DNA of 34,210 nucleotides from Christiangramia sp. GTDB taxonomy: Bacteria; Bacteroidota; Bacteroidia; Flavobacteriales; Flavobacteriaceae. Shown here piece after piece: positions 22,492 through 34,036 of this stretch. The notes under the pieces were generated by a model that saw only the letters and a list, made by a program, of their open reading frames with translations, was not told the origin of the DNA and made no database searches. The first letter of the stretch is position 1; each line of letters begins with the position of its first letter. Location of the stretch: assembly GCA_024635735.1 (NCBI GenBank), contig JAGXII010000193.1:1-34210 (forward strand). Reading direction: 5' to 3'. The translations under genes and the position numbers were made by a program.

Positions 22492-23261
22492 TGTTAAAGA
22501 AAATTTTTGCCCTGATTCTATTATCCTTCTTTGTGGTTTCCTGCGGAAGCAGAAGATCAGCTTCAAAGATAGTTACTAAAGATGCGGAAGCGGTATCGGT
22601 GATCCAGAAGCATTATAAGAATGAACTGGACTTTAAAACCGTATCCGGTAGATTAAAGGCGGTATATCAGGATGAGGAGAGAACTCAATCGGTTAATTTG
22701 AGTTTTCGAATGGAGAAAGATAAAGCGATCTGGATGAGTGCCAGCGTTCTGGGGTTTCCTGTGGCTAAAGCCTATATTACCCCAACGAGTGTGAGTTATT
22801 ACGAAAAAGTTACTCAATCCTATTTTGACGGAGACTTCAGCCTGCTAAGTGATTTTTTGGGGACGCCACTGGACTTTCAGAAACTTCAGAATTTACTTAT
22901 AGGGCAGGCGATTTACGATTTACGATCTGAAAACTATAAATTCACTCAATCTCCAAAGGGTTTTCAATTTGTTTCAGATGAAGCAAATGTGATTAAGAAA
23001 ATGTTTTTGCTGGATCCCCTTAATTTTAAGGCGCAGGCACAACAACTGGCACAGGAGAATGAAAACCGGAGTCTAACGATTACATATTCAGATTATCAAA
23101 AGGTTGCAGGTTATATTTTCCCTGAAAACATAAGAATTATCGCAAATGAAGGTGGAACCGGGACAAATATAGATCTAACCTACAGGTCACTAAGTTTCAA
23201 TGAAGAACTCAGTTTCCCGTTCGAAATTCCTTCGGGATATGAAGAAATCAGTTTAAAATGA
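22491..23261 (+). CDS. DUF4292 domain lipoprotein
   Basis: Lipobox VVSC; RMEKDKAIWMS, LDFQKLQNLLIG, FPFEIPSGY motifs; TAATG overlap with the TPR gene. Confidence 0.82.
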   Translation: MLKKIFALILLSFFVVSCGSRRSASKIVTKDAEAVSVIQKHYKNELDFKTVSGRLKAVYQDEERTQSVNLSFRMEKDKAIWMSASVLGFPVAKAYITPTSVSYYEKVTQSYFDGDFSLLSDFLGTPLDFQKLQNLLIGQAIYDLRSENYKFTQSPKGFQFVSDEANVIKKMFLLDPLNFKAQAQQLAQENENRSLTITYSDYQKVAGYIFPENIRIIANEGGTGTNIDLTYRSLSFNEELSFPFEIPSGYEEISLK

Positions 23262-24481
23262 TTCGAATAAATTACCCAAAATCTCTGATTTGCTTAATGC
23301 TGCTCTTTTTTGCATTCAATTCTGCAAATGCTCAAAACGACAGGGAGGAGCTTGAAAAAAGAAGAATAGAACTTCGAAATGAGATTAAAAGGATTAATGA
23401 ACTTCGTATTTCAAACCAGAAGAAGCAACGATCGGTTTTGGGCCAGGTGGAAGATCTTAATCAACAGATCAAAAGCACTGAGAATCTTATAAAAGTCACT
23501 AATCAGCAGGCTAATTTACTTACGCGTGAGATTAATACAAATACCAATAAAATAGGACAGCTTCGAAAAGAGCTGGAGAAGTTAAAGGAGGATTATGCCA
23601 AGATGATCAGGAAATCCTATAAAAGTAAATCCCAGCAAAGCCGAATAATGTTCCTGCTGTCTTCCAAAAGCTTTTTGCAGGCGTATAAGAGGCTTCAGTA
23701 TATGAAGCAGTATGCGAACTATCGCCAACAGCAAGGAGAGGAAATAAAGGCTCATACAGTCGAATTACAGCAACTGAATTCTCAGTTGGTAAAGCAGAAG
23801 GAGCAAAAGGATAAATTAATAGCCGAAAACCGTAAGACCAGGGCTCAGCTCGAAGAGAATCGCAAGTCCCAACAATCCCTCATGGTTACCATCAAAAAGA
23901 GGGAAGGGGAGTTTGCCGCACAAATTAGAAATAAACAACAGGAAATTGATGAAATAGATCGTGCTATCGATAGGATGATCCGGGAGTCTATCGCTAAGGC
24001 GAATAAGGAAAGTGGATCTTCTTCCCGTGACACGTACGAGCTTACCCCCGCAGCCAGAGCACTCGCTGCCGACTTTGCCAATAATAAAGGAAAACTACCA
24101 TGGCCGGTTAGATCTGGAGTGGTTACCATGCGATTTGGAAAACAACCGCACCCTATAGTTAAATCGGCTATTATTAACAACAACGGGGTACGTATAGATA
24201 CCGATCAAGGAGGAAAAGCAAGAGCTGTTTTTAACGGAACCGTGAGTGAGGTTCAGGCGGTAAAGGGAGCTAATATGGCCGTGATGGTCAGGCATGGTGA
24301 TTATATTACTATTTACAATAACCTGGAAAAAGTTTTTGTGAAAAGAGGGGATAATGTTACTACCGAGGAGGAACTGGGAGAGATTGCCACGAGTAAAACA
24401 ACTGGCAAGACCACACTTCACTTTTTTATTTTCAAAAACACTCAGAAAATGGATCCTGCCGACTGGATTTACCAGATGTAG
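23258..24481 (+). CDS. envC: Murein hydrolase activator EnvC family (coiled coil + degenerate M23)
   Basis: Signal peptide, long coiled coil, NKGKLPWPV, M23 domain lacking the HxxxD zinc motif (NNGVRID). Confidence 0.85.
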   Translation: MIRINYPKSLICLMLLFFAFNSANAQNDREELEKRRIELRNEIKRINELRISNQKKQRSVLGQVEDLNQQIKSTENLIKVTNQQANLLTREINTNTNKIGQLRKELEKLKEDYAKMIRKSYKSKSQQSRIMFLLSSKSFLQAYKRLQYMKQYANYRQQQGEEIKAHTVELQQLNSQLVKQKEQKDKLIAENRKTRAQLEENRKSQQSLMVTIKKREGEFAAQIRNKQQEIDEIDRAIDRMIRESIAKANKESGSSSRDTYELTPAARALAADFANNKGKLPWPVRSGVVTMRFGKQPHPIVKSAIINNNGVRIDTDQGGKARAVFNGTVSEVQAVKGANMAVMVRHGDYITIYNNLEKVFVKRGDNVTTEEELGEIATSKTTGKTTLHFFIFKNTQKMDPADWIYQM

Positions 24482-24510
24482 CGCAACCTTTTGTGCTTTG
24501 CGGCATCTAC
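24482..24510 (+). promoter_or_regulatory. Candidate ECF-sigma promoter, copy 1
   Basis: CGCAACCTTT-N11-GCATCTAC, identical in both blocks and spacing to 32804-32832(-); 13 nt upstream of ATG 24524. Confidence 0.75.
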
Positions 24511-24523
24511 TTAAAAATAGCGT

Positions 24524-25207
24524 ATGAAAACAAAAGTTTTTTTATTACTTCTTCCATGCCTTTTATTTTCATGTAATGGTGATGTTCAGATTGAAGATAA
24601 CAGGCGTTTACTGGTTTCGGGAAGTATCACTGGGAACGCTCCAGATAATATTTCAGTGGTGACGATGGGTGCATATAATATGGAACCCGATGATAATCCT
24701 GATAAAATTCTGGGTTTTGGTAAGAGTAATCAAAATGGAAAGTTTTCATTTACATCGCTGGACACCTATTCTCATAATTTACTTATTTCAATAAACTCTA
24801 AGGTGCTAGATGATTACAAAGAGAACATGGGATCTTATTATTTTTATGATGATTCAGGAATACATCAGCTTTCTTATGATCTGGGAGAAATCAACCTCCC
24901 GCAAAAAGTTTCTTTTGATTTTAATATCGAAAATACTTCAGGCACCTCAGACACTCTTTATTACTCATTTAAATATGAAAATCCGGTAAAGTATTTTGTG
25001 AGGGCCACTAATGATTTTGAGGAGGTTGAGGATAATTCTTATGTGACAGTCTATGAAATTTTGCCACTTTCTGAGCCTCGGGTTCATCATATTGATGTGG
25101 CAGCCGGCAGCGATCTTAAATTTATATACAATTTTGGAGATCAGGCGGCACAGGAAATAACTGTGAGTGTAAATTCTGAAACGAACTCTTATGATTTTGA
25201 ATACTAG
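24524..25207 (+). CDS. Hypothetical lipoprotein
   Basis: Lipobox LLFSC; acidic, beta-rich 227 aa. Confidence 0.8.
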   Translation: MKTKVFLLLLPCLLFSCNGDVQIEDNRRLLVSGSITGNAPDNISVVTMGAYNMEPDDNPDKILGFGKSNQNGKFSFTSLDTYSHNLLISINSKVLDDYKENMGSYYFYDDSGIHQLSYDLGEINLPQKVSFDFNIENTSGTSDTLYYSFKYENPVKYFVRATNDFEEVEDNSYVTVYEILPLSEPRVHHIDVAAGSDLKFIYNFGDQAAQEITVSVNSETNSYDFEY

Positions 25208-25826
25208 AATTTTATTTGTCTTTCTTCTTTTTTCTGTTGTTGGATTTGCTCAGAAAAACGATTCAATTCCTGCTTACCAGTATTCTCCGAACGATCCTGA
25301 AACGGTTTTCTTCGACCTGGAAGCCTTTTATCCTATTGCTTTAGGGAATACTGTTTATAAAGATGCCTATAATTTTGATCCTGGATTTGCAATTAATTTT
25401 AACTGGTTCTTTAAGCCTAATTTTACGCTTGGGGCTCGGCTATCTCAGGTAACGGGACATGCTAAAGACAAGTCTTTAACTGGCAATATAAAATATACCA
25501 ATTTTCAGCTGCTTGGCCTTACAGTTGGCTATTTCCATCCCTTTAATCGTGAGTGGAGTTTACAATCTAAAGTAGGTATAGGAACAACCAATTATCGAAA
25601 CAGATCTCCGGAAGATAGGTTTGAAGATAAAGGAGGGCAGGTATGGTTTTCTGAAGAAGTGGCTTATAGGTTAGGGAAAAGCTTTGCTTTGTTTGCAACA
25701 ACTGGTTTAGAATATCACTTTAACCATATTGACATAGTGCAAGAGAAGGACGATTATTTTAATACTGCAATTTTCGCCAATCTGGGAATAGGTTTGAGGT
25801 GGCATTTACAAAATCCCGGAGGTTAA
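25191..25826 (+). CDS. Small outer-membrane beta-barrel protein
   Basis: Signal peptide (VGFA-Q), alternating aromatic/Gly strands, last strand ANLGIGLRWHL; 17-nt overlap with the upstream gene. Confidence 0.78.
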   Translation: MILNTRILFVFLLFSVVGFAQKNDSIPAYQYSPNDPETVFFDLEAFYPIALGNTVYKDAYNFDPGFAINFNWFFKPNFTLGARLSQVTGHAKDKSLTGNIKYTNFQLLGLTVGYFHPFNREWSLQSKVGIGTTNYRNRSPEDRFEDKGGQVWFSEEVAYRLGKSFALFATTGLEYHFNHIDIVQEKDDYFNTAIFANLGIGLRWHLQNPGG

Positions 25827-26339
25827 TTATTCTTCGAACAAGGCCTTAAGTTCTGTAGCCTCATTTGGTTTCATTTTTCCTGCAAGAACAAGGCTAAGTT
25901 GTTTTCTTCTCAAAGCGGCCTCAAAACGTTGTTTTTCGAGATCTGTTTCGGGCTTTAATGGAGGGATCTGAACCGGAGTTCCGGTTTCATCTACCGCAAC
26001 AAAGGTATATATCGCTTCATTGGCTTTACTTCTTTTACCGCTTTCACGGTCTTCAACCCAAACATCTATAAAGATCTCCATAGAAGATTTAAAAGCACGG
26101 GAAACAGCAGCTTCTACCGTTACAACACTACCTAATGGAATCGCTTTATTAAAAGCTACATGATTAACAGAAGCGGTAACCACAATCCTGCGACTATGTC
26201 TTCTTGCCGCAATACTAGCAGCGCGATCCATACGCGCCAGTAGCTCCCCTCCAAAAAGATTGTTTAAAGGGTTAGTTTCGCTTGGTAATACAAGATCGGT
26301 AAGTGTAGTTCGTGATTCTGCTGGTGTTTTAGCCTCCAT
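25827..26339 (-). CDS. Acyl-CoA thioesterase (hotdog fold, YciA-like)
   Basis: ETNPLNNLFGGELLARMD, VVTASV, YTFVAVD. Confidence 0.93.
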   Translation of the reverse strand: MEAKTPAESRTTLTDLVLPSETNPLNNLFGGELLARMDRAASIAARRHSRRIVVTASVNHVAFNKAIPLGSVVTVEAAVSRAFKSSMEIFIDVWVEDRESGKRSKANEAIYTFVAVDETGTPVQIPPLKPETDLEKQRFEAALRRKQLSLVLAGKMKPNEATELKALFEE

Positions 26340-26352
26340 GTAAAATTTTTTG

Positions 26353-26360
26353 CAAAAATA
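26353..26360 (-). promoter_or_regulatory. sigmaA -7 element (TATTTTTG) for the thioesterase
   Basis: CAAAAATA on +, 13 nt upstream of the ATG. Confidence 0.6.
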
Positions 26361-26395
26361 AGGAGGATTTAGGAGGTTTAGCCGTTAAAGAAGTA

Positions 26396-27325
26396 TTAAA
26401 GTTCCTGAACCAATAACCAGGCTCCTTCATTAGTTTTCTTGACCTCATAAAGTTTATTGATCGCCTCTCTTCGGGATTCATGGCTGGAATATACCACCTG
26501 ATGTAAACCATATTTATTGGCTCCAATCAATCTGGCTTTGTATCCCTCTGCTCGAAGTTCCTTCACTTTTTTATCGGCATTTTCTTCCACTCTAAAAGCT
26601 CCGGCAACTACATGGTAGTTTCCTGATTGTTTTTCAACTTCAAAGGTTACAGATGGCAGGGGATTATCGATTACGAAGGTAGCCTGCTGGATTTGCTCCT
26701 GCAGTTGACTTTCAGCTTCCTGCTGTTCAGCGATGTTGTGTTTGGACACCTGGCTGCTGTAAATATTTAATCCTGAGATGCCTGAAAGCCCAATGGCCAG
26801 AATTCCTATAGCTGCATATTTGAGAATAGAAGAACGCCTACTTTCCGGAGTGAAAAGGATAGGTGTTTTTTCTTCCAGTTTTTCGACCTGTTTCCTGTAA
26901 ACTTCTCTTTGAAGGGCCTGTGTTTCAAATGATGCAAGACCGAAAGAATCTGTAAGGAAGTTTATTTCGCTGGAAGGTTCAAATTGTAGCCTTTCTTCTT
27001 CATCAAGATAAAATTTACCAATATTGGCCAGTTCTGCTTTTGAATCTTTCTGAAGTGAATTTTCCAGGTCGTATACAAACTCCTGGATCATATTATTAGC
27101 AGTTACATACTTGACATTCTCTACTTCGGCAATATAATTTGCCAGCAAACCATCATTCTTAATAAGCTGACGGTTAAAAGAGATTTGTTTTTTTGGAGGA
27201 TGAAACTCTCCAGAAGACTGGCTTATATATGCTGATCGTTTCTGAGATAAGAATGCTCCGAAACCGGGTAAAACAACGCATTCATATCTATAAAGAAGGT
27301 CCTGGATGTAATTGGTAATATTCAT
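26396..27325 (-). CDS. HU/IHF-like (HU-CCDC81) domain - TM - SPOR domain protein
   Basis: N-term IQDLLYRYECVVLPGFGAF...NDGLLANYI; TM YAAIGILAIGLSGI; C-term YHVVAGAFRVEENA...AWLL. Start placed at 27325 (309 aa). Confidence 0.85.
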   Translation of the reverse strand: MNITNYIQDLLYRYECVVLPGFGAFLSQKRSAYISQSSGEFHPPKKQISFNRQLIKNDGLLANYIAEVENVKYVTANNMIQEFVYDLENSLQKDSKAELANIGKFYLDEEERLQFEPSSEINFLTDSFGLASFETQALQREVYRKQVEKLEEKTPILFTPESRRSSILKYAAIGILAIGLSGISGLNIYSSQVSKHNIAEQQEAESQLQEQIQQATFVIDNPLPSVTFEVEKQSGNYHVVAGAFRVEENADKKVKELRAEGYKARLIGANKYGLHQVVYSSHESRREAINKLYEVKKTNEGAWLLVQEL

Positions 27326-27330
27326 TAGAG

Positions 27331-27338
27331 CAAAAATA
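27331..27338 (-). promoter_or_regulatory. sigmaA -7 element (TATTTTTG) for the SPOR gene
   Basis: Minus strand reads TATTTTTG-CTCTA-ATG. Confidence 0.6.
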
Positions 27339-27400
27339 TGGCTTATTGGTAGTTGGTTAAAGTTACCCAAACAATTTTTATTAACAAATCTTTTTTTCTG

Positions 27401-27408
27401 TAATTTTG
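27401..27408 (+). promoter_or_regulatory. sigmaA -7 element (TAATTTTG) for dprA
   Basis: Exact TAnnTTTG 16 nt upstream of ATG 27425. Confidence 0.55.
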
Positions 27409-27424
27409 GTCAAATTATGGCTGG

Positions 27425-28525
27425 ATGAATTCTGAAGACTTATTATATGCCCTTGCGCTACAGCATATCCCTAATCTGGGGGATACTACGGCAAAAAAAC
27501 TTATCAGGCATTTTGGAAAAGCAGAGCAGGTCTTCAGGGAAAAGAAATCCAGTTTACTCAAGCTGGATGGGATAGGCCAGATTCGCATCCAGGAGATCCA
27601 TGATTCCAGCCATTTGAAAGCCGCGGAGGAAGAGATTAAATTCATGGAATCTCATCACATAAACCATTATTTTTTTCAGGAAAAGGAGTATCCCGAAAAA
27701 CTCAAACATTGCCTGGATGGGCCGGTGCTTTTATTTTCAAAAGGCAGGATCGATTTACATAAAAAGAAGATTATTAGCATTGTTGGAACCAGGCAGATTA
27801 GCGCTCATGGTATGTCCTTCTGTGAAAAACTACTCGAAGATCTGGCACCTCTGGATCCGGTAATAGTTTCCGGCTTTGCCTATGGCGTAGATATCACCGC
27901 TCAAAAAGCTGCAGTTAAAAATTCGTTACAAACAATAGGTTGTCTGGCACATGGTTTAAATCAAATATATCCAAAAGTTCATAAAAAGTATGTGAAGGAA
28001 ATTGAAGAAAATGGCGGTTTCTTTACCGATTTCTGGAGTACCGATAAATTTGACAGGAATAATTTTTTAAAACGTAACAGGATAATAGCGGGATTAAGCG
28101 AAGCGACCATTGTTATCGAAAGTGCCGAAAGAGGGGGCTCTCTTGTAACTGCCGATATTGCCGTTTCTTACGACAGAGAAGTTTTTGCAGTTCCCGGAAG
28201 ACCCGCAGATAAATTCAGTTCGGGTTGTAACAATCTAATAAAATCCCAACGGGCGCATGTGCTGACTTCAGCAGCCGACCTGGTTTATATTCTTAACTGT
28301 GAATTAGAGGAAAAGGAAAGGAGTGTACAGAAACAGTTATTTGTTCAACTGGATGGAGAGGAGCAAATACTATATGATTTTCTTAGCTCACGGGGAAAAA
28401 GCGAACTGGATATACTGGCACTAAATTGCCAGTTTCCTACCTTTAAAACAGCTTCTTTATTGTTAAATATGGAACTGAAAGGGGTAATAAGACCTCTTCC
28501 AGGAAAATTATTTGAAATAGTTTAG
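27425..28525 (+). CDS. dprA: DNA-processing protein DprA
   Basis: SIVGTR, IVSGFAYGVD, FLKRNRIIAGLS, GGSLVTA, REVFAVPG, C-terminal LLNMELKG. Confidence 0.96.
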   Translation: MNSEDLLYALALQHIPNLGDTTAKKLIRHFGKAEQVFREKKSSLLKLDGIGQIRIQEIHDSSHLKAAEEEIKFMESHHINHYFFQEKEYPEKLKHCLDGPVLLFSKGRIDLHKKKIISIVGTRQISAHGMSFCEKLLEDLAPLDPVIVSGFAYGVDITAQKAAVKNSLQTIGCLAHGLNQIYPKVHKKYVKEIEENGGFFTDFWSTDKFDRNNFLKRNRIIAGLSEATIVIESAERGGSLVTADIAVSYDREVFAVPGRPADKFSSGCNNLIKSQRAHVLTSAADLVYILNCELEEKERSVQKQLFVQLDGEEQILYDFLSSRGKSELDILALNCQFPTFKTASLLLNMELKGVIRPLPGKLFEIV

Positions 28526-29490
28526 TAGCCGGCCTTTTCTCTTACCTTCTTAAGAACTTTGTTAGCAACCACTTTAGCTTTTTCAGCACCAATTGAAAGG
28601 GCTTTGTCTATTTCTTTGTGATTATTAATGTAGTACTCATATTTTTCTCTTGGTTCCTGGAACTTTTCCTTTACAAGATCAAAAAGAGCCTGTTTTGCGT
28701 GGCCATATCCATAACCACCGGCTTCGTAATTTTTACGCATTTCAGCCGTTTGTTCTTCTGAAGCCATAAGCTTATATAGTCCAAAAACATTACAGGTATC
28801 AGGGTTTTTAGGCTCTTCAAGCGGGGTACTGTCGGTTTCTATACCCATGATCTGTTTTCTGAGTTTTTTATCAGTCTGAAAAATATTAATGGTATTTCCT
28901 TTAGACTTACTCATTTTTTCCCCGTCGGTTCCCGGAACATACATGGTGTCCTTCTGAACTTTAGCTTCAGGAATTACAAATACCTCACCCATTTTAGCAT
29001 GAAATCTGGTGGCCACATCTCGCGTCATTTCCAGGTGCTGTAACTGATCTTTCCCTACAGGTACTATTTCAGCATCATATAAAAGGATATCCGCTGCCAT
29101 TAACATGGGGTAAGAAAATAATCCTGCATTTACATCTTCCAGACGATCTGCTTTATCTTTAAACGAATGCGCCAGAGTTAGCCTCTGATAAGGAAAAAAG
29201 CAACTCAAATACCAGGTAAGCTCAGTTACCTGAGGAATATCACTCTGCCGGTAAAAAACACTTCTTTCAATGTCTAATCCACAGGCAAGCCAGGTAGCCG
29301 CTACCGAATAGGTGTTTTGCCTAAGCGTTTCTGCATCTTTTATTTGCGTAAGAGAATGAAGGTCTGCAATAAAAATAAAAGAATCATTTTCCGGCTGGTT
29401 GGCCATCTCTATTGCAGGCATTATCGCTCCTAAAAGATTCCCCAAGTGGGGAGTTCCTGTACTCTGTACTCCTGTAAGTATTCTGGACAT
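28522..29490 (-). CDS. trpS: Tryptophan--tRNA ligase
   Basis: TGVQSTGTPHLGN (HIGH), YPMLMAADIL, VPVGKDQLQH, KMSKS. Confidence 0.98.
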   Translation of the reverse strand: MSRILTGVQSTGTPHLGNLLGAIMPAIEMANQPENDSFIFIADLHSLTQIKDAETLRQNTYSVAATWLACGLDIERSVFYRQSDIPQVTELTWYLSCFFPYQRLTLAHSFKDKADRLEDVNAGLFSYPMLMAADILLYDAEIVPVGKDQLQHLEMTRDVATRFHAKMGEVFVIPEAKVQKDTMYVPGTDGEKMSKSKGNTINIFQTDKKLRKQIMGIETDSTPLEEPKNPDTCNVFGLYKLMASEEQTAEMRKNYEAGGYGYGHAKQALFDLVKEKFQEPREKYEYYINNHKEIDKALSIGAEKAKVVANKVLKKVREKAGY

Positions 29491-29509
29491 TTACTTCTCA
29501 ATTTTGATG

Positions 29510-29517
29510 CAAAGGTA
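29510..29517 (-). promoter_or_regulatory. sigmaA -7 element (TACCTTTG) for trpS
   Basis: CAAAGGTA on +, 19 nt upstream of the ATG. Confidence 0.62.
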
Positions 29518-29550
29518 AATTTTTTCTAGAATTGACTCGGTTCATTTTAC

Positions 29551-29558
29551 TACTTTTG
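29551..29558 (+). promoter_or_regulatory. sigmaA -7 element (TACTTTTG) for plsC
   Basis: TACTTTTG-ATTTT-ATG. Confidence 0.6.
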
Positions 29559-29563
29559 ATTTT

Positions 29564-30307
29564 ATGCGTTACTTCAAGTGGGCTGCAGTTCTATTGTGGC
29601 GAATCTGGTTTTATATTTTAATGATTGTTCTCATAATAATAATGTTACCGGTGCTTGTAGTTTTCACTTCTTCTGAAAAATTTTATCCGGAGTTTTTTAT
29701 TTGTGCGCGGATATGGGCTAAGATTATAATTTTTGGCATGGGTTTTAATATAAAAACCGTCGCCGAACAAATCCCCGAAAAGGACAGGAGTTATATGCTT
29801 GTGGCCAACCATACCTCTATGCTGGATATTATGCTCATGCTTGCAGTAATTAAGCAGCCTTTTGTGTTCCTGGGAAAAGAGGAACTTGTAAAAATTCCTG
29901 TTTTCGGATTCGTTTACCGTAGAACCTGCATACTTGTAGACCGTAATAATAACCGTAGCCGTCAGAAAGCTTTTAATGAAGCTCAACGAAGATTAAAACA
30001 GAAAAACAGTGTTTGTATATTTCCGGAGGGTGGTGTCCCGCAAGATCAGAATATTATTCTGGATCAATTCAAAGATGGCGCTTTCAGGTTGGCGATAGAA
30101 CATCAAATTCCTATAATTCCGCTAACTTTTCACGATAACAAAAAGCGTTTTTCTTATAATTTTTTTAGCGGAGGTCCCGGAAAATTAAGGGTGAAGATCC
30201 ATAATTTTATCTGTACCGAAAATTTGCAACCAAACGACCGCAGAATGCTCAAGGAAAAAGTTCATAAGATCATTCTGGATGAATTGCTAAATCCCGGGCT
30301 GCATTAA
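29564..30307 (+). CDS. plsC: 1-acyl-sn-glycerol-3-phosphate acyltransferase family
   Basis: NHTSMLD (HX4D), IFPEGG, FKDGAF motifs. Confidence 0.88.
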   Translation: MRYFKWAAVLLWRIWFYILMIVLIIIMLPVLVVFTSSEKFYPEFFICARIWAKIIIFGMGFNIKTVAEQIPEKDRSYMLVANHTSMLDIMLMLAVIKQPFVFLGKEELVKIPVFGFVYRRTCILVDRNNNRSRQKAFNEAQRRLKQKNSVCIFPEGGVPQDQNIILDQFKDGAFRLAIEHQIPIIPLTFHDNKKRFSYNFFSGGPGKLRVKIHNFICTENLQPNDRRMLKEKVHKIILDELLNPGLH

Positions 30308-31764
30308 AATTTAATGCTAATCCCGGAATATATACCAAAATTCACGGGCTGTACGTTCTGCACACTATTAAAGGTATTCAGCTGATATTTGAAAATAGGC
30401 TCCAGATTTAGGCTGAATTTGTCACTTAGTTCATAATCCAGTCCCACCCCGATATTAGTACTAAAGCTTGTACTGTTTATGTTGCTCGCTTCACCTAGAA
30501 CGGTAGTGGTATTGCCCGAATTTAAATCCACCCGGTTCTTATCAAGAAATAAACCGCTGGCACCACCAATTAAATTGAGTCCAAGCTTTTTGTCTACTAA
30601 AGCGTATTCTATTTCCAGCGGCACTTCTATAAATCCAAATTGCTGGTTGATCTCACCGGGCGTGAAAATAGCCGAGGTTAGAGAATTGGCTACAGAGGTA
30701 TTTTCAGCAAATCCGTTATTCATATTGCGATCACTTCTAACATTTATATTTTCAGATGACGGCCGTATGTTTTCGAAACTATTGGACATTGCCATAGGCG
30801 AATATGAGATATCCTGGATGTTGTAGCTCATATTAATCTTGCTGATTCCCGTTCTTATCTTAACCTTTTTAGAAACTTCATACGCAACTTTCACTCCGTA
30901 GGAAACAGTAACATCTGAGGAAGCTGAATTATTTGAGAACTGTGAAGACAGCTCATTCCCGCTTCCCATATTTTTATAAAAAACGGGTGCGGCGAAGGTT
31001 GATAATTCTAATTTTCGTGAATTAGATTCCGAAGTTTCTTCTTCCTCATCGTCTTTATCCTGAAGCTTCTCTTTTTCTATTTGCGAGAGCGCATTTTCTT
31101 CTTCGAGAGTTTTTTCAGGTTCTGTAATAATATTTTTTAAGGTATCAGCCTCATTTCCGGCAATTATACCGGAAGGATCTTTAGAGATCACCTCCGGTTT
31201 TTTTGCCAATTCCTCTTTTTCATATTCGGAATTATCTTGAGTAATATTTTCTTCTAAAGAAGTTATCCCTGTATCCTTTGAAGGAACTGCACTCTTCTTG
31301 TCAAGGGTATAATTTTCGCTAATTTTACTGGATTCCGGCACCTGACTGGCAACTGAATTGTTTGAAGATGAACTATTATCAGAACCGGTTAATGATGAGT
31401 TTTTATTTTCAGAAGAGGGATTTTCTTCCACTGTCAGGGTGTCTTCTTCCCGGGTGTTCGTATTTGATTGAGATGGATTTGAATCAGGATCTTTTTTCTG
31501 GATATCTTCAGTTTTATCAAAAACAATATTGGGGTCTGAAGGACCTTGCTGTTGATTATCTGTAAAGAGCAGCCCCGCGATTATTACAGTAATAACCGCT
31601 GCGATACTGCCTATTTTAAACCATAATGGAATAATAAGGGCTCTTTTTTTCTTCTTTTTATCAAGTTTCCTGGAGATATTTTCCCAGACTTTATCATCGG
31701 GATTTACTTCAAAATCCTTGAATTTTTCCTGAAATATCCGGTCTATGTTCTTCTTTTCTTTCAT
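30304..31764 (-). CDS. Putative dual-membrane-spanning anti-sigma factor (N-term anti-sigma domain, TM, disordered linker, C-term OM beta-barrel)
   Basis: MKEKKNIDRIFQEKFKDFEVNPDDKVWENI, KKKKKR then a hydrophobic helix, about 180 aa S/N/E/K-rich linker, amphipathic strands ending GIYSGISIKF; ATGA overlap with the ECF sigma. Confidence 0.75.
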   Translation of the reverse strand: MKEKKNIDRIFQEKFKDFEVNPDDKVWENISRKLDKKKKKRALIIPLWFKIGSIAAVITVIIAGLLFTDNQQQGPSDPNIVFDKTEDIQKKDPDSNPSQSNTNTREEDTLTVEENPSSENKNSSLTGSDNSSSSNNSVASQVPESSKISENYTLDKKSAVPSKDTGITSLEENITQDNSEYEKEELAKKPEVISKDPSGIIAGNEADTLKNIITEPEKTLEEENALSQIEKEKLQDKDDEEEETSESNSRKLELSTFAAPVFYKNMGSGNELSSQFSNNSASSDVTVSYGVKVAYEVSKKVKIRTGISKINMSYNIQDISYSPMAMSNSFENIRPSSENINVRSDRNMNNGFAENTSVANSLTSAIFTPGEINQQFGFIEVPLEIEYALVDKKLGLNLIGGASGLFLDKNRVDLNSGNTTTVLGEASNINSTSFSTNIGVGLDYELSDKFSLNLEPIFKYQLNTFNSVQNVQPVNFGIYSGISIKF

Positions 31765-32306
31765 AATGATTGAGCCGAATTATTTGTATTCTGGGATTCT
31801 TCAATTTTTTCTTTAAGACTTAACCTTGCTCTGGAAAGATTCGATTTCGAAGTCCCTTCAGAGATATTTAGCATTTTTGCTATCTCCTTATGAGAAAAAC
31901 CTTCCATAACATACAGGTTAAATACTTGGCGGTAGCGATCTGGCAGGGATTGAATAAGATTCAGTAAATAATCAAGGGAAACACTTTCGTCATCGATCTC
32001 TACCTCTTCCTCTGCAAGATTTTCTTCATTAGTAATCTCATAGAGTTTTTGGCTGCGGTGTTTTTGAAGGCAGGTATTAATTACGATCCGCTTCATCCAT
32101 CCTTCAAAAGATCCCTGATTACTATACTGGGATATTTTCGCGAAAATTGTCAAAAACCCATCCTGCAGACTATCTTCTGCCTGTGCCTGGTTATCAGAAT
32201 ATTTCAAACAAAGCCCGAACAGCTTGCCCGCATATAAGCGGTAAAGCTGTTCCTGTGCTTCTCTGTCCTGATTTTTACAATGACGAATGAGTTTCTCTAA
32301 ACTCAC
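31761..32306 (-). CDS. ECF-type RNA polymerase sigma factor
   Basis: GTG start; AEDSLQDGF, GSFEGWMKRI (region 2), LPDRYRQVFNL...FSHKEIAKMLNISEGTSKSNLSRAR (region 4); 181 aa. Confidence 0.95.
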   Translation of the reverse strand: MSLEKLIRHCKNQDREAQEQLYRLYAGKLFGLCLKYSDNQAQAEDSLQDGFLTIFAKISQYSNQGSFEGWMKRIVINTCLQKHRSQKLYEITNEENLAEEEVEIDDESVSLDYLLNLIQSLPDRYRQVFNLYVMEGFSHKEIAKMLNISEGTSKSNLSRARLSLKEKIEESQNTNNSAQSL

Positions 32307-32331
32307 AAATTTTAGATGTTTTTTGAGATTA

Positions 32332-32778
32332 TTATTCTGTCGTTGACGCTTCGGTTACAGGAACGCTTACATCATAATAAACAGCATTCCCAACTGAGTC
32401 CTGCCCCGTCCAGAAATGGAAATTATAATTATCCATTTCATCAATTAATATAGAAAATTTACTGGTTCCGGTACTACCTTCTGCATTTGGATCGCAAAGG
32501 GTACTGCTTTTTATGGCGCTAATTGCCGAAACGTAACTTTCCCTTCTGTTTTCAGATGAATTACCTGCGCGTCTTGCGTCCAGTCCGGTAAAAGTAAAAC
32601 AATCTGAGGCTAATTGGTAAGTAACGGTTACATCATAGGTTTCCCCATAGACAAACTCTTCGGGTAAATCGCTGTTTGTAATTTCGGCAAGTTCATACTG
32701 AATGCTCTCGTATCCGCTATCTACAGAACAACCCGTCATTGCAATGACTGCCATCAGGACAAAAACTAACTTCTTCAT
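32332..32778 (-). CDS. Hypothetical lipoprotein heading the ECF operon
   Basis: Lipobox AMTGC; acidic, beta-rich, two further Cys; 25 nt upstream of the ECF sigma. Confidence 0.82.
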   Translation of the reverse strand: MKKLVFVLMAVIAMTGCSVDSGYESIQYELAEITNSDLPEEFVYGETYDVTVTYQLASDCFTFTGLDARRAGNSSENRRESYVSAISAIKSSTLCDPNAEGSTGTSKFSILIDEMDNYNFHFWTGQDSVGNAVYYDVSVPVTEASTTE

Positions 32779-32803
32779 AAGTATATTTAATTTGCTTTAT
32801 ACT

Positions 32804-32832
32804 GTAGATGCAAATTTTGAAGAAAGGTTGCG
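32804..32832 (-). promoter_or_regulatory. Candidate ECF-sigma (autoregulatory) promoter, copy 2
   Basis: Minus strand CGCAACCTTT-CTTCAAAATTT-GCATCTAC, 25 nt upstream of ATG 32778, immediately downstream of the recA terminator. Confidence 0.78.
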
Positions 32833-32840
32833 TAGGGATC

Positions 32841-32864
32841 AAAAAAAATCCCCGAAAGGGGATT
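32841..32864 (-). terminator. Rho-independent terminator of recA
   Basis: Minus strand AATCCCC-TTTC-GGGGATT followed by a T run, directly after the recA stop. Confidence 0.88.
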
Positions 32865-32868
32865 CTTA

Positions 32869-33882
32869 TTATTCTTTAGCGACCTTGATCGCTTCTTTTA
32901 TTTTCTCTTCGAGCTCATCCATGAGGTCGGGATTATCCTTGAGAAGGGTTTTTACAGCATCCCTTCCCTGGCCTAATTTAGTGTCTTCATAACTAAACCA
33001 GGAACCACTCTTTTTAATAATCTCATAATCCACTCCAATATCGATGATCTCTCCAATCTTGGAAATTCCCTCACCGTACATGATATCGAATTCGGCAGTT
33101 TTAAAAGGAGGCGCTACTTTGTTTTTTACGACTTTCACACGGGTTTTGTTCCCCATTACATTGTTGGCACTATCCTTTATTTGTGTAGACCTTCTAATAT
33201 CCAGCCTTACGGAAGCATAGAATTTAAGAGCGTTACCACCGGTAGTTGTTTCGGGGTTCCCAAACATAACTCCAATTTTTTCCCTTAACTGGTTGATAAA
33301 AATAACCGTGCAGTTGGTTTTACTTATAGAAGAAGTAAGTTTTCTAAGGGCCTGAGACATAAGTCTTGCATGAAGTCCCATTTTAGAATCTCCCATCTCT
33401 CCTTCGATCTCACTTTTTGGTGTAAGAGCGGCAACGGAGTCAATTACTATAATATCAATAGCACCAGACCGGATAAGATTATCGGTAATTTCAAGAGCCT
33501 GTTCACCATTATCAGGTTGTGAAATAATCAGGTTGTCGATATCCACATCCAGTTTTTCTGCATAAAACCGGTCAAAAGCGTGTTCCGCATCAATAAAAGC
33601 GGCGATCCCGCCTTTTTTCTGAGCTTCCGCGATAGCATGAAGCGTAAGAGTTGTTTTACCTGAAGATTCCGGACCATATATTTCAATCACCCTTCCTCTT
33701 GGATAACCGCCTACTCCCAATGCCAGGTCAAGACCCAGCGATCTGGTTGAAATGGCGTCTACATCAACTACTACCTGGTCGCTCATTTTCATGACCGTTC
33801 CTTTTCCGTAGGTCTTATCCATTTTATCAAGGGTAAGCTTTAACGCCTTTAACTTTGCTTCTTTTTCTTTATCGTTGCTCAT
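32869..33882 (-). CDS. recA: Recombinase A
   Basis: [60 protein letters not shown]; start placed at MSNDKEK (33882), 337 aa. Confidence 0.99.
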
Positions 33883-34036
33883 ATTGAATATTAAATTGAA
33901 AGTAAAATAAGGTCTGCTAAAATAAGATAAGTTTTGCTGCAATACAATAAAACTTATCGACGATTCATGGAATATTTCCAAAAATTTGGACAAACATTAA
34001 TTTCGGCCCCATATATGGCCTGTAAATTGAAAAATG

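What the first reader, a model, noticed from the sequence alone, without database searches (positions are those of the whole stretch)
24482..32832. Identical bipartite ECF-type promoter upstream of the ECF operon and of a distant lipoprotein/OM-barrel pair: a candidate regulon
Seen: CGCAACCTTT-N11-GCATCTAC occurs at 24482-24510 (+) and 32804-32832 (-). All 18 block positions and the spacer length are identical, while the spacer sequences differ. Both copies are intergenic, correctly oriented, and 13 and 25 nt before a lipoprotein ATG; I see no TAnnTTTG in front of either gene. Known: ECF sigmas usually autoregulate and recognise -35 AAC / -10 CGT-like elements; here AAC and CATCT are 16 nt apart. 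Inference: this is the promoter of the ECF at 31761-32306, and 24524-25826 is a second member of its envelope regulon.
Basis: partly seen in the sequence, partly recalled or inferred. Interest (0 to 1): 0.85.

Follow-up and report, generated by a model that had tools for sequence, protein, structure and literature searches.

The report
Flavobacterial envelope-stress sigma promoter
A two-part DNA signal sits in front of an alternative sigma factor's own operon and of several lipoprotein genes, recurs in about a hundred genera of this bacterial family, and is likely the promoter of an envelope-stress switch of a known kind (ECF21/Dma), whose predicted targets in relatives include two unannotated tiny proteins.

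Summary
Both copies are at the stated places. An 18-base bipartite pair alone is not rare (53 of 100 shuffles); position and conservation carry the case. The core GCAACC-N15-(C/T)ATCT precedes the orthologous ECF operon in 27 of 29 other genera. It occurs in 99 of 100 family genomes with the ortholog and 2 of 20 without. This genome has four sites, all before lipoproteins. The sigma/anti-sigma pair has ECF21/Dma (EcfO-Reo, Das1-Dma1) anatomy. The published ECF21 prediction is GCAACC/CGTCT, so this is a -10 variant of a known predicted promoter. A paralog here carries the CGTCT form, and the -10 base tracks the RpoE-Lys56-equivalent residue. In relatives the motif also precedes two unannotated 28-45-residue peptide families, not found in this genome. 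No start site, binding or expression was shown. The scan noted other Dma-like systems before, not this motif.

The parts
24482..24510 (+). Promoter-like site 1: -35-like GCAACC 24483-24488, 15-nt spacer, -10-like CATCT 24504-24508; starts right after the envC stop codon
   Evidence: score 31.3 on a matrix built only from other genera; conserved after envC in congeners
24524..25207 (+). 227-aa predicted lipoprotein (Cys17), two tandem beta-sandwich domains, no Pfam or NCBIfam family
   Evidence: model pLDDT 78.5; only generic pilin/Ig-like fold matches, best Z 8.1, rmsd 5.6, 171 aligned
25191..25826 (+). 211-aa predicted small outer-membrane beta-barrel, overlapping the lipoprotein gene; the two genes stay together in relatives
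   Evidence: Pfam OMP_b-brl E 1.6e-5, below the curated cut-off; a similar second ORF follows the lipoprotein in 30 of 31 homologous loci, the other not read because of an offset error
32804..32832 (-). Promoter-like site 2, the likely autoregulatory one: GCAACC 32831-32826, CATCT 32810-32806
   Evidence: score 33.5; same place in 27 of 29 other genera
32841..32864 (-). Intrinsic-terminator-like hairpin plus T run after recA, likely insulating the ECF operon from recA read-through
   Evidence: sequence; fold -13.1 kcal/mol
32332..32778 (-). 148-aa predicted lipoprotein, first gene of the ECF operon; a single beta-sandwich that weakly resembles the C-terminal part of Bacteroidales NigD-like lipoproteins
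   Evidence: model pLDDT 85.4; top VIA rows are Parabacteroides/Bacteroides proteins 5bmt Z 6.3 and 3k0y Z 5.9, with the NigD-titled 3qwn Z 5.2 and 4pqx Z 4.7, tied with unrelated Ig folds
31761..32306 (-). 181-aa ECF sigma factor (sigma2 + sigma4), ECF21-like; Thr53 lies at the RpoE Lys56 position
   Evidence: offset from the anchors Gln51 and Trp73 named in PMC7776599
30304..31764 (-). 486-aa predicted Dma/Reo-type anti-sigma factor: N-terminal ~40-aa domain, one hydrophobic helix, polar linker, C-terminal barrel ending in Phe
   Evidence: helix in 30 of 30 loci; terminal Phe in 11 of 11 complete ones; barrel hit E 1e-4, below cut-off
23258..24481 (+). envC-like M23 peptidase gene upstream of site 1 (context; no terminator-like T run between it and site 1)
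32869..33882 (-). recA upstream of site 2 (context typical of subgroups ECF21s3/s6)
   Evidence: PMC7826278 supplement part 9

Best explanation
The two copies are likely -35/-10 promoters (GCAACC-N15-CATCT) read by the ECF21-like sigma factor at 31761-32306, which is predicted to be held inactive by the neighbouring membrane-spanning anti-sigma factor until outer-membrane stress would release it. Shown here: the motif, its fixed spacing, its position 12-40 nt before start codons, its conservation, its co-occurrence with this sigma factor, the anti-sigma anatomy, and lipoprotein-rich downstream genes. Inferred: released sigma directs RNA polymerase to site 2 (positive feedback on lipoprotein-sigma-anti-sigma, insulated from recA by a terminator), to site 1 (an internal inducible start for the lipoprotein/barrel pair behind envC), and to two more sites in this genome (a 410-aa LVIVD-repeat lipoprotein on contig C113; two lipoproteins followed by a signal peptidase II gene on C25). 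Release by cleavage of the anti-sigma is taken from the model proposed for Bacteroides Dma1. A paralogous ECF on C33 keeps the same -35 but has -10 CGTCT and a 16-nt spacer; Thr versus Lys at the RpoE-56 position likely helps keep the two regulons apart.
For: Footprint: 27 of 29 ortholog loci from other genera have GCAACC-N15-(C/T)ATCT ahead of the operon (22 CATCT, 5 TATCT); one has a 14-nt spacer, one is cut by a contig end. In 3 loci without the lipoprotein gene the site is directly before the sigma gene. Profile: 466 matches against 26 for the reversed pattern in 121 genomes; motif in 99 of 100 genomes with the ortholog (E<=1e-50) and 2 of 20 without (tallied by hand). 24 of 24 congeners have GCAACC-N14-GCATCT, with 0 reversed controls. 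A matrix from other genera ranks the four G000 sites on top (34.4-24.2) with 0 controls above 22. Targets: 34 of 58 intergenic sites with a downstream ORF precede a lipoprotein by my heuristic, against 208 of 1972 ORFs genome-wide. In a GTDB-wide exact scan 2 of 80 listed sites lie inside ORFs. Found by protein homology alone, 15 of 17 new small-ORF loci have the strict motif and the other 2 a one-step variant. The lipoprotein/barrel pair keeps the motif in other gene contexts in three genera. The published ECF21 -35 is GCAACC, with recA at -1 in ECF21s3/s6. In Bacteroidales the homologous system is autoregulated, induces lipoproteins and responds to envelope stress. N16-CGTCT (50 vs 28 control) sits before the paralog, while N15-CGTCT is not enriched (18 vs 28) in 30 genomes.
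Against: No start site, binding or expression data. The published -10 is CGTCT, not CATCT. 5 of 22 congeneric and 4 of 9 family homologs of the 24524 lipoprotein lack the strict motif (one of the 4 has a one-mismatch site), so site 1 is not obligatory. 15 of the 20 genomes lacking the ortholog are 2.2 Mb or smaller, and kin are not independent. A sister clade of ECFs has the same motif before its own operons (L162, L163, L177), and G000 is only 73.5% complete, so an unassembled paralog could share the sites. One Lys-bearing ECF (L156) has a candidate CATCT site, and the Asn84-equivalent residue also differs between the clades. Some matches are not promoters: three lie at the same place just before an rmlD-like ORF (recalled label), probably within the upstream coding sequence, and 11 identical ones in G045 are a repeat. 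The anti-sigma barrel scores below Pfam's cut-off.
Confidence: 0.85

Rival explanations
1. The sites are ECF promoters, but are read mainly or equally by another ECF: the C33 paralog with the same -35, or a sister-clade paralog missing from this incomplete assembly.
For: The C33 ECF (36% identical) has GCAACC before its own gene. Sister-clade ECFs carry the same CATCT motif. Many family genomes hold a second hit at E 1e-46 to 1e-53. G000 is 73.5% complete. Overlapping ECF regulons were suggested for F. psychrophilum (PMC9723704 passages).
Against: The paralog's own site is N16-CGTCT. 6 of 7 genomes that keep only weaker paralogs have no CGCAACC-N15-YATCT match. No sister-clade gene is in the G000 assembly.
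Confidence: 0.1
2. The element is not a promoter but an operator for a DNA-binding regulator, or an RNA hairpin at gene ends (site 1 can fold and follows a stop codon; site 2 follows recA, so an SOS link is conceivable).
For: The site-1 region folds at -12.5 kcal/mol. Both copies lie just after a stop codon. In many relatives a second copy lies upstream of recA, pointing away from it.
Against: The motif is asymmetric, strand-specific and fixed in spacing, with freely varying spacers in orthologs. It keeps a 12-40 nt distance to starts, not to stops. It co-occurs with the sigma factor. recA has its own terminator, and a separate GGA-N5-TCC box of the published Flavobacteriaceae SOS type lies upstream of recA.
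Confidence: 0.04
3. The two copies are a chance resemblance.
For: 53 of 100 shuffles of the window contain some 10+8 bipartite repeat.
Against: Conservation at orthologous positions, 466 versus 26 control matches, and co-occurrence with the sigma factor.
Confidence: 0.01

Closest known systems
ECF21 group and its predicted promoter GCAACC(-35)/CGTCT(-10) (PMC7826278 supplement parts 8-9, citing Rhodius 2013, which I did not see)
   Same: Bacteroidota ECF with a +1 single-helix anti-sigma carrying a barrel; recA, acyltransferase and thioesterase nearby as listed for ECF21s3; identical -35.
   Different: -10 is (C/T)ATCT with a 15-nt spacer. The CGTCT form with a 16-nt spacer belongs here to a paralog with a shorter anti-sigma and no obvious barrel (C33; L164 and L179, which follow a gene I recognise from recall as a polyprenyl synthetase, the context listed for ECF21s1). 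Subgroup logos were not visible to me and may already show the variant.
Das1-Dma1 (B. thetaiotaomicron) / EcfO-Reo (B. fragilis, P. vulgatus) (PMC10927553, PMC13088901, PMC13114119, PMC9308784; passages)
   Same: Gene order lipoprotein-sigma-anti-sigma; four-part anti-sigma architecture; a small regulon dominated by uncharacterised lipoproteins; self-induction.
   Different: Direct orthology was not tested. The first gene has a single domain with only weak NigD-like fold similarity. Targets here are other lipoprotein families, small barrels and, in relatives, tiny peptides. No promoter is given in the passages read, and the EcfO paper that defines one was not held.
SM6 ECF-type motif of Flavobacterium psychrophilum (PMC9723704, section 15 part 1 and supplement searches)
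   Same: Same family; AAC-type -35 at mapped start sites; median 5' UTR 24 nt, comparable to the distances seen here.
   Different: SM6 has a CGT -10 and type IX secretion targets. Neither of the 2 rows containing CGCAACC in its 1884-row 5'-end table has this motif.

Membership tests
ECF21 sigma group | ECF sigma with sigma2 and sigma4 only | tested here: met
   Pfam Sigma70_r2, r4_2 and ECF; 181 aa
ECF21 sigma group | Bacteroidetes host | tested here: met
   Indirect: 70 of 80 listed GTDB loci with the exact motif carry Flavobacteriales-type titles (hand count); the window's own record is unnamed
ECF21 sigma group | +1 anti-sigma with one inner-membrane helix | tested here: met
   Single hydrophobic peak starting at residues 41-53 in 30 of 30 loci
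ECF21 sigma group | Outer-membrane beta-barrel in the anti-sigma | tested here: inconclusive
   OMP_b-brl E 9.9e-5 and OMP_b-brl_2 E 8.9e-4, below cut-offs; terminal Phe in 11 of 11 complete; not modelled
ECF21 sigma group | Subgroup context (recA at -1; acyltransferase, thioesterase) | tested here: met
   recA upstream with one lipoprotein gene between; acyltransferase at 29564 and thioesterase at 25827
ECF21 sigma group | Assignment by the group's own HMM or tree with named members | not testable with these tools
   No ECF-group HMMs or named Das1/EcfO sequences were obtained; my tree holds unnamed loci only
Published ECF21 consensus promoter | -35 GCAACC | tested here: met
   Invariant in 27 of 27 aligned sites
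Published ECF21 consensus promoter | -10 CGTCT (given as the 'most common' prediction) | tested here: not met
   22 CATCT, 5 TATCT, 0 CGTCT of 27; filed as a variant, not as an instance of that consensus
Dma/Reo dual-membrane anti-sigma factors | Long disordered tether between helix and barrel | tested here: met
   By composition only: residues 81-220 are 66-84% polar or charged in 30 loci
Dma/Reo dual-membrane anti-sigma factors | N-terminal ~40 aa binds the cognate sigma | not testable with these tools
Dma/Reo dual-membrane anti-sigma factors | Spans both membranes; loss derepresses the regulon | not testable with these tools
   Needs fractionation and mutants
NigD-like lipoproteins (for 32332-32778) | NigD sequence or fold | tested here: inconclusive
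   No NigD Pfam hit; no PDB sequence hit at E<=0.1; VIA Z 4.7-5.2 to the two NigD-titled chains and up to 6.3 to other Bacteroidales proteins, tied with other Ig folds

The most novel reading that the evidence does not exclude
Flavobacteriaceae run two ECF21-like systems on one -35 element and keep them apart by the -10 base and the spacer, set largely by one residue (Thr/Ile versus Lys at RpoE position 56). The barrel-coupled system's commonest non-lipoprotein targets are two undescribed families of 28-45-residue peptides: a hydrophobic one with FS[VC]N, partly a micro-lipoprotein, and one ending in DGG, encoded divergently from recA. These would form a small-protein feedback arm of the Bacteroidota envelope-stress response.
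Probability: 0.3. Interest if true: 0.65.

Novelty: new variant of a known kind. Interest (0 to 1): 0.42.

Why it matters
Dma/Reo systems control vesicle production and toxin resistance in gut Bacteroidales, but their direct targets and the role of the induced lipoproteins are open questions, and my eight paper searches found no study of the system in Flavobacteriaceae. A sharp promoter matrix gives a direct-target list for about a hundred genera. It offers a candidate inducible promoter for flavobacterial genetics, exposes two unannotated peptide families, and suggests a one-residue test of how paralogous sigma factors avoid cross-talk. The system and the -35 prediction themselves are known, which limits the surprise.

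Tried and rejected
Expression: no RNA holder listed, so no reads were laid. The ESM Atlas gave no answer for either lipoprotein. The EcfO paper was not held. F. psychrophilum 5'-end table: 7 of 28 GCAACC rows and 2 of 2 CGCAACC rows read, none with the motif; whether that species has the ortholog was not checked, so this counts neither way. Todor 2020 supplements: no occurrence of four genus names in the 8 readable files; datasets S1 and S2 were too large to read and may hold this motif. A small-RNA reading of the recA-divergent transcript in relatives was set aside: 12 of 23 such loci hold an intact DGG ORF, differences fall mostly on third codon positions (697 of 1019 in the last six codons), and Rfam gave no match in 10 loci; the ORF-less ones may be decayed copies. 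The same codon test on the FS[VC]N family returned no rows (pattern error) and was not repeated. The first shuffle test was spoiled by local palindromes and was redone. A fifth G000 site (C102, score 21.1) is within control range (2 controls above 19) and was not accepted. The homolog search for the 24524 lipoprotein returned only 5 close proteins, one of them the query. Fold searches gave no specific family for either lipoprotein.
Full report
Observation. Both copies are present as described. Copy 1 begins on the base after the stop codon of an M23 peptidase (envC-like) gene and ends 13 nt before a 227-aa lipoprotein gene, which overlaps a 211-aa barrel-like gene. Copy 2 lies behind the recA terminator hairpin and 25 nt before a 148-aa lipoprotein gene, followed by the ECF sigma and a 486-aa gene. 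Neither has TAnnTTTG within 150 nt. The fixed pattern is rare by chance (0.02 expected). Allowing for after-the-fact choice, some 10+8 bipartite repeat occurs in 53 of 100 shuffles. The identity alone therefore proves little.

Own genome. The window is contig C69 of a 2.57-Mb, 73.5%-complete assembly. Scans found two more intergenic sites: C113:6394 before a 410-aa lipoprotein (a congeneric homolog has LVIVD repeats), and C25:961 before two lipoproteins followed by a signal peptidase II gene. A matrix built from 27 sites of other genomes ranks these four on top (34.4, 33.5, 31.3, 24.2), with no reversed-genome control above 22.

Conservation. 24 of 24 congeners have GCAACC-N14-GCATCT, with no reversed-pattern control; 2 of 16 genomes of other families do. 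I examined the 29 best ortholog loci of 107 matching family genomes. In 27 the site GCAACC-N15-(C/T)ATCT lies between recA and the first gene of the operon; one has a 14-nt spacer and one is cut off. Three loci lack the lipoprotein gene, and there the site stands directly before the sigma gene. Over 121 genomes the pattern gives 466 matches against 26 controls. By hand tally it is in 99 of 100 genomes whose best ECF hit has E<=1e-50 and in 2 of 20 others. Caveats: 15 of those 20 are small genomes, kin are not independent, and one genome's count is inflated by an 11-copy repeat. An exact scan of GTDB stopped at 139 stretches and listed 80. Of these, 70 carry Flavobacteriales-type titles, and the 2 sites inside ORFs are both in Acidobacteriaceae.

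Second regulon member. Homologs of the 24524 lipoprotein were found by profile in 22 of 37 congeners and 9 of 120 family genomes. In the genus 14 of 22 have the strict motif, 3 have it with a spacer one base off, and 5 lack it. In the family 5 of 9 have it, three of which I had found through the motif; one more has a one-mismatch site. The barrel-like gene follows in 30 of 31 loci; the remaining locus was not read because of an offset error. The pair keeps the motif in different neighbourhoods in three genera. It is thus a frequent but not obligatory member. The lipoprotein models as two beta-sandwich domains with no specific family.

What the system is. The 486-aa protein has a conserved N-terminal segment, one hydrophobic helix (30 of 30 loci), a polar linker, and a C-terminal region with weak barrel hits and a terminal Phe (11 of 11 complete). 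This is the architecture described for Dma1/Reo (PMC10927553 passages and section 11; PMC13088901 passages). The ECF reclassification supplement (PMC7826278 parts 8-9) describes ECF21 with such an anti-sigma, recA at -1 in subgroups s3/s6, and a most common predicted promoter GCAACC/CGTCT. In Bacteroidales the pair is self-induced, turns on a few lipoproteins (NigD-like), and responds to envelope-damaging toxins or drives vesiculation (passages of PMC9308784, PMC13114119, PMC10927553). The first gene here folds as one beta-sandwich whose top structural matches are Bacteroidales proteins, two of them titled NigD-like, at Z 4.7-6.3. That is within the range of a common fold. PMC7366714 (passages) says an EcfO motif was published; that paper was not held.

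The -10 variant and paralogs. G000 has a second ECF (C33, 36% identical) with GCAACC-N16-CGTCT before it and a 257-aa anti-sigma with no obvious barrel region; its relatives L164 and L179 have the same site. In 30 chosen genomes N16-CGTCT gave 50 matches against 28 controls, and N15-CGTCT 18 against 28. Of the 150 listed CATCT matches (199 in all), 101 had 15 nt and 49 had 16 nt, against 52 controls for both spacings (hand counts). The window sigma has Thr53 at the RpoE Lys56 position (offset from Gln51 and Trp73), a residue that earlier work tied to the -12 base (PMC7776599 passages; sections 5-6). 28 of 30 orthologs have Thr. A sister clade with Ile, and C132 with Ser, have (C/T)ATCT sites. 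Lys-bearing C33, L164, L179, L161, C80 and C152 have CGTC. L175, a Lys-bearing gene nested inside the Thr clade, has GTC with a shorter spacer. L156 (Lys, candidate CATCT) is an exception; L167 and L176 gave no clear site; and the Asn84-equivalent residue differs too. This is a correlation over about three contrasts, not a demonstration.

Wider regulon. I examined 94 sites in 90 loci (30 given; 60 that I picked from its 150 listed of 466 matches, avoiding ECF-adjacent ones). 11 lay inside ORFs. Of 58 intergenic sites with an ORF of 55 aa or more, 34 were lipoproteins by a heuristic that misses some, against 208 of 1972 genome-wide. Of 37 downstream proteins scanned, 22 had no Pfam hit; the rest include lipocalin-like, LVIVD, DUF3575, SusD-like, serpin and VWA proteins. 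Sites without a long ORF exposed two peptide families. (a) A 28-45-aa hydrophobic peptide with invariant Asn, Leu-Leu and FS[VC]N. The profile matches 73 of 120 family genomes at E<=0.001 (the weaker hits not inspected); among the 30 best loci the 17 new ones have the strict motif in 15 and a variant in 2. No Pfam or NCBIfam hit better than E 0.008. (b) A 28-31-aa peptide ending in DGG, encoded divergently from recA: 12 of 23 such loci and 19 of 80 GTDB loci, with third-position-biased changes and no family hit better than E 0.02 in 10 tested. Neither was found in G000. Family (a) gave only weak, unconvincing hits in 6 of 38 genomes of the genus. Their function is unknown; a feedback or membrane-modulating role is my inference.

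Mechanism and verdict. Most likely the anti-sigma holds the sigma at the inner membrane and senses the outer membrane with its barrel; stress would release the sigma, which would transcribe its own operon and a handful of lipoprotein and barrel genes from GCAACC-N15-(C/T)ATCT. The sequence features and correlations are shown; release, stimulus and transcription are inferred. The system and the -35 are known. The -10/spacer variant, the Flavobacteriaceae target list and the two peptide families did not turn up in eight paper searches, but subgroup logos, Todor datasets S1/S2, the EcfO paper and most subscription journals were out of reach. Rated a new variant of a known kind, interest 0.42.

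Noticed in passing
window 33969-33979: GGAATATTTCC upstream of recA fits the GGA-N5-TCC SOS box published for Flavobacteriaceae (PMC8565304 passages); a GGA-N5-TCC palindrome is also in all 3 congeneric stretches fetched at the matching place.
   Followed up: partly
window 33926-33958: Inverted repeat (GATAAGTTTT ... AAAACTTATC) between recA and the divergent gene, just beside the SOS-like box.
   Followed up: no
L186-L215 (e.g. L199, L200, L189): Unannotated 28-45-aa hydrophobic peptide family with FS[VC]N behind the motif. The Cys form has an acidic tail and looks like a micro-lipoprotein; some loci hold a tandem second copy. A weaker-scoring set in ~60-aa frames was not inspected.
   Followed up: partly
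L216-L232, L271, L278 and others: Unannotated 28-31-aa peptide ending in DGG, transcribed away from recA from a second copy of the motif and ahead of a gene whose start matches yceA; decayed to its start context in some genera; not found in this genome.
   Followed up: partly
G000 C33:5945, C80:1813, C132:7321, C152:3468: Four other ECF genes each have their own AAC-type site (GCAACC-N16-CGTCT, GCAACG-N15-CGTCT, GTAACA-N15-CATCT, GTAACA-N15-CGTCG); further intergenic (G/T)AAC-N16-CGTC sites on C59, C87, C149, C186 and C230 suggest their regulons.
   Followed up: partly
L175 (G248:C1): A duplicated lipoprotein-sigma-anti-sigma operon away from recA has Lys at the RpoE-56 position and a GTC-type -10 with a shorter spacer: a natural specificity switch.
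   Followed up: partly
G000 C25:1028-2625: The motif heads two lipoprotein genes followed by a signal peptidase II gene (Pfam A8); a shared transcript would couple lipoprotein output to its processing.
   Followed up: partly
G045 C1 (several places): An identical 26-nt match occurs 11 times, pointing to a repeated or mobile element that carries the motif.
   Followed up: no
G000 C113:4860-6303: A miaB-like gene (recalled label) divergent from the third site is split into two overlapping ORFs, a frameshift or an assembly error.
   Followed up: no
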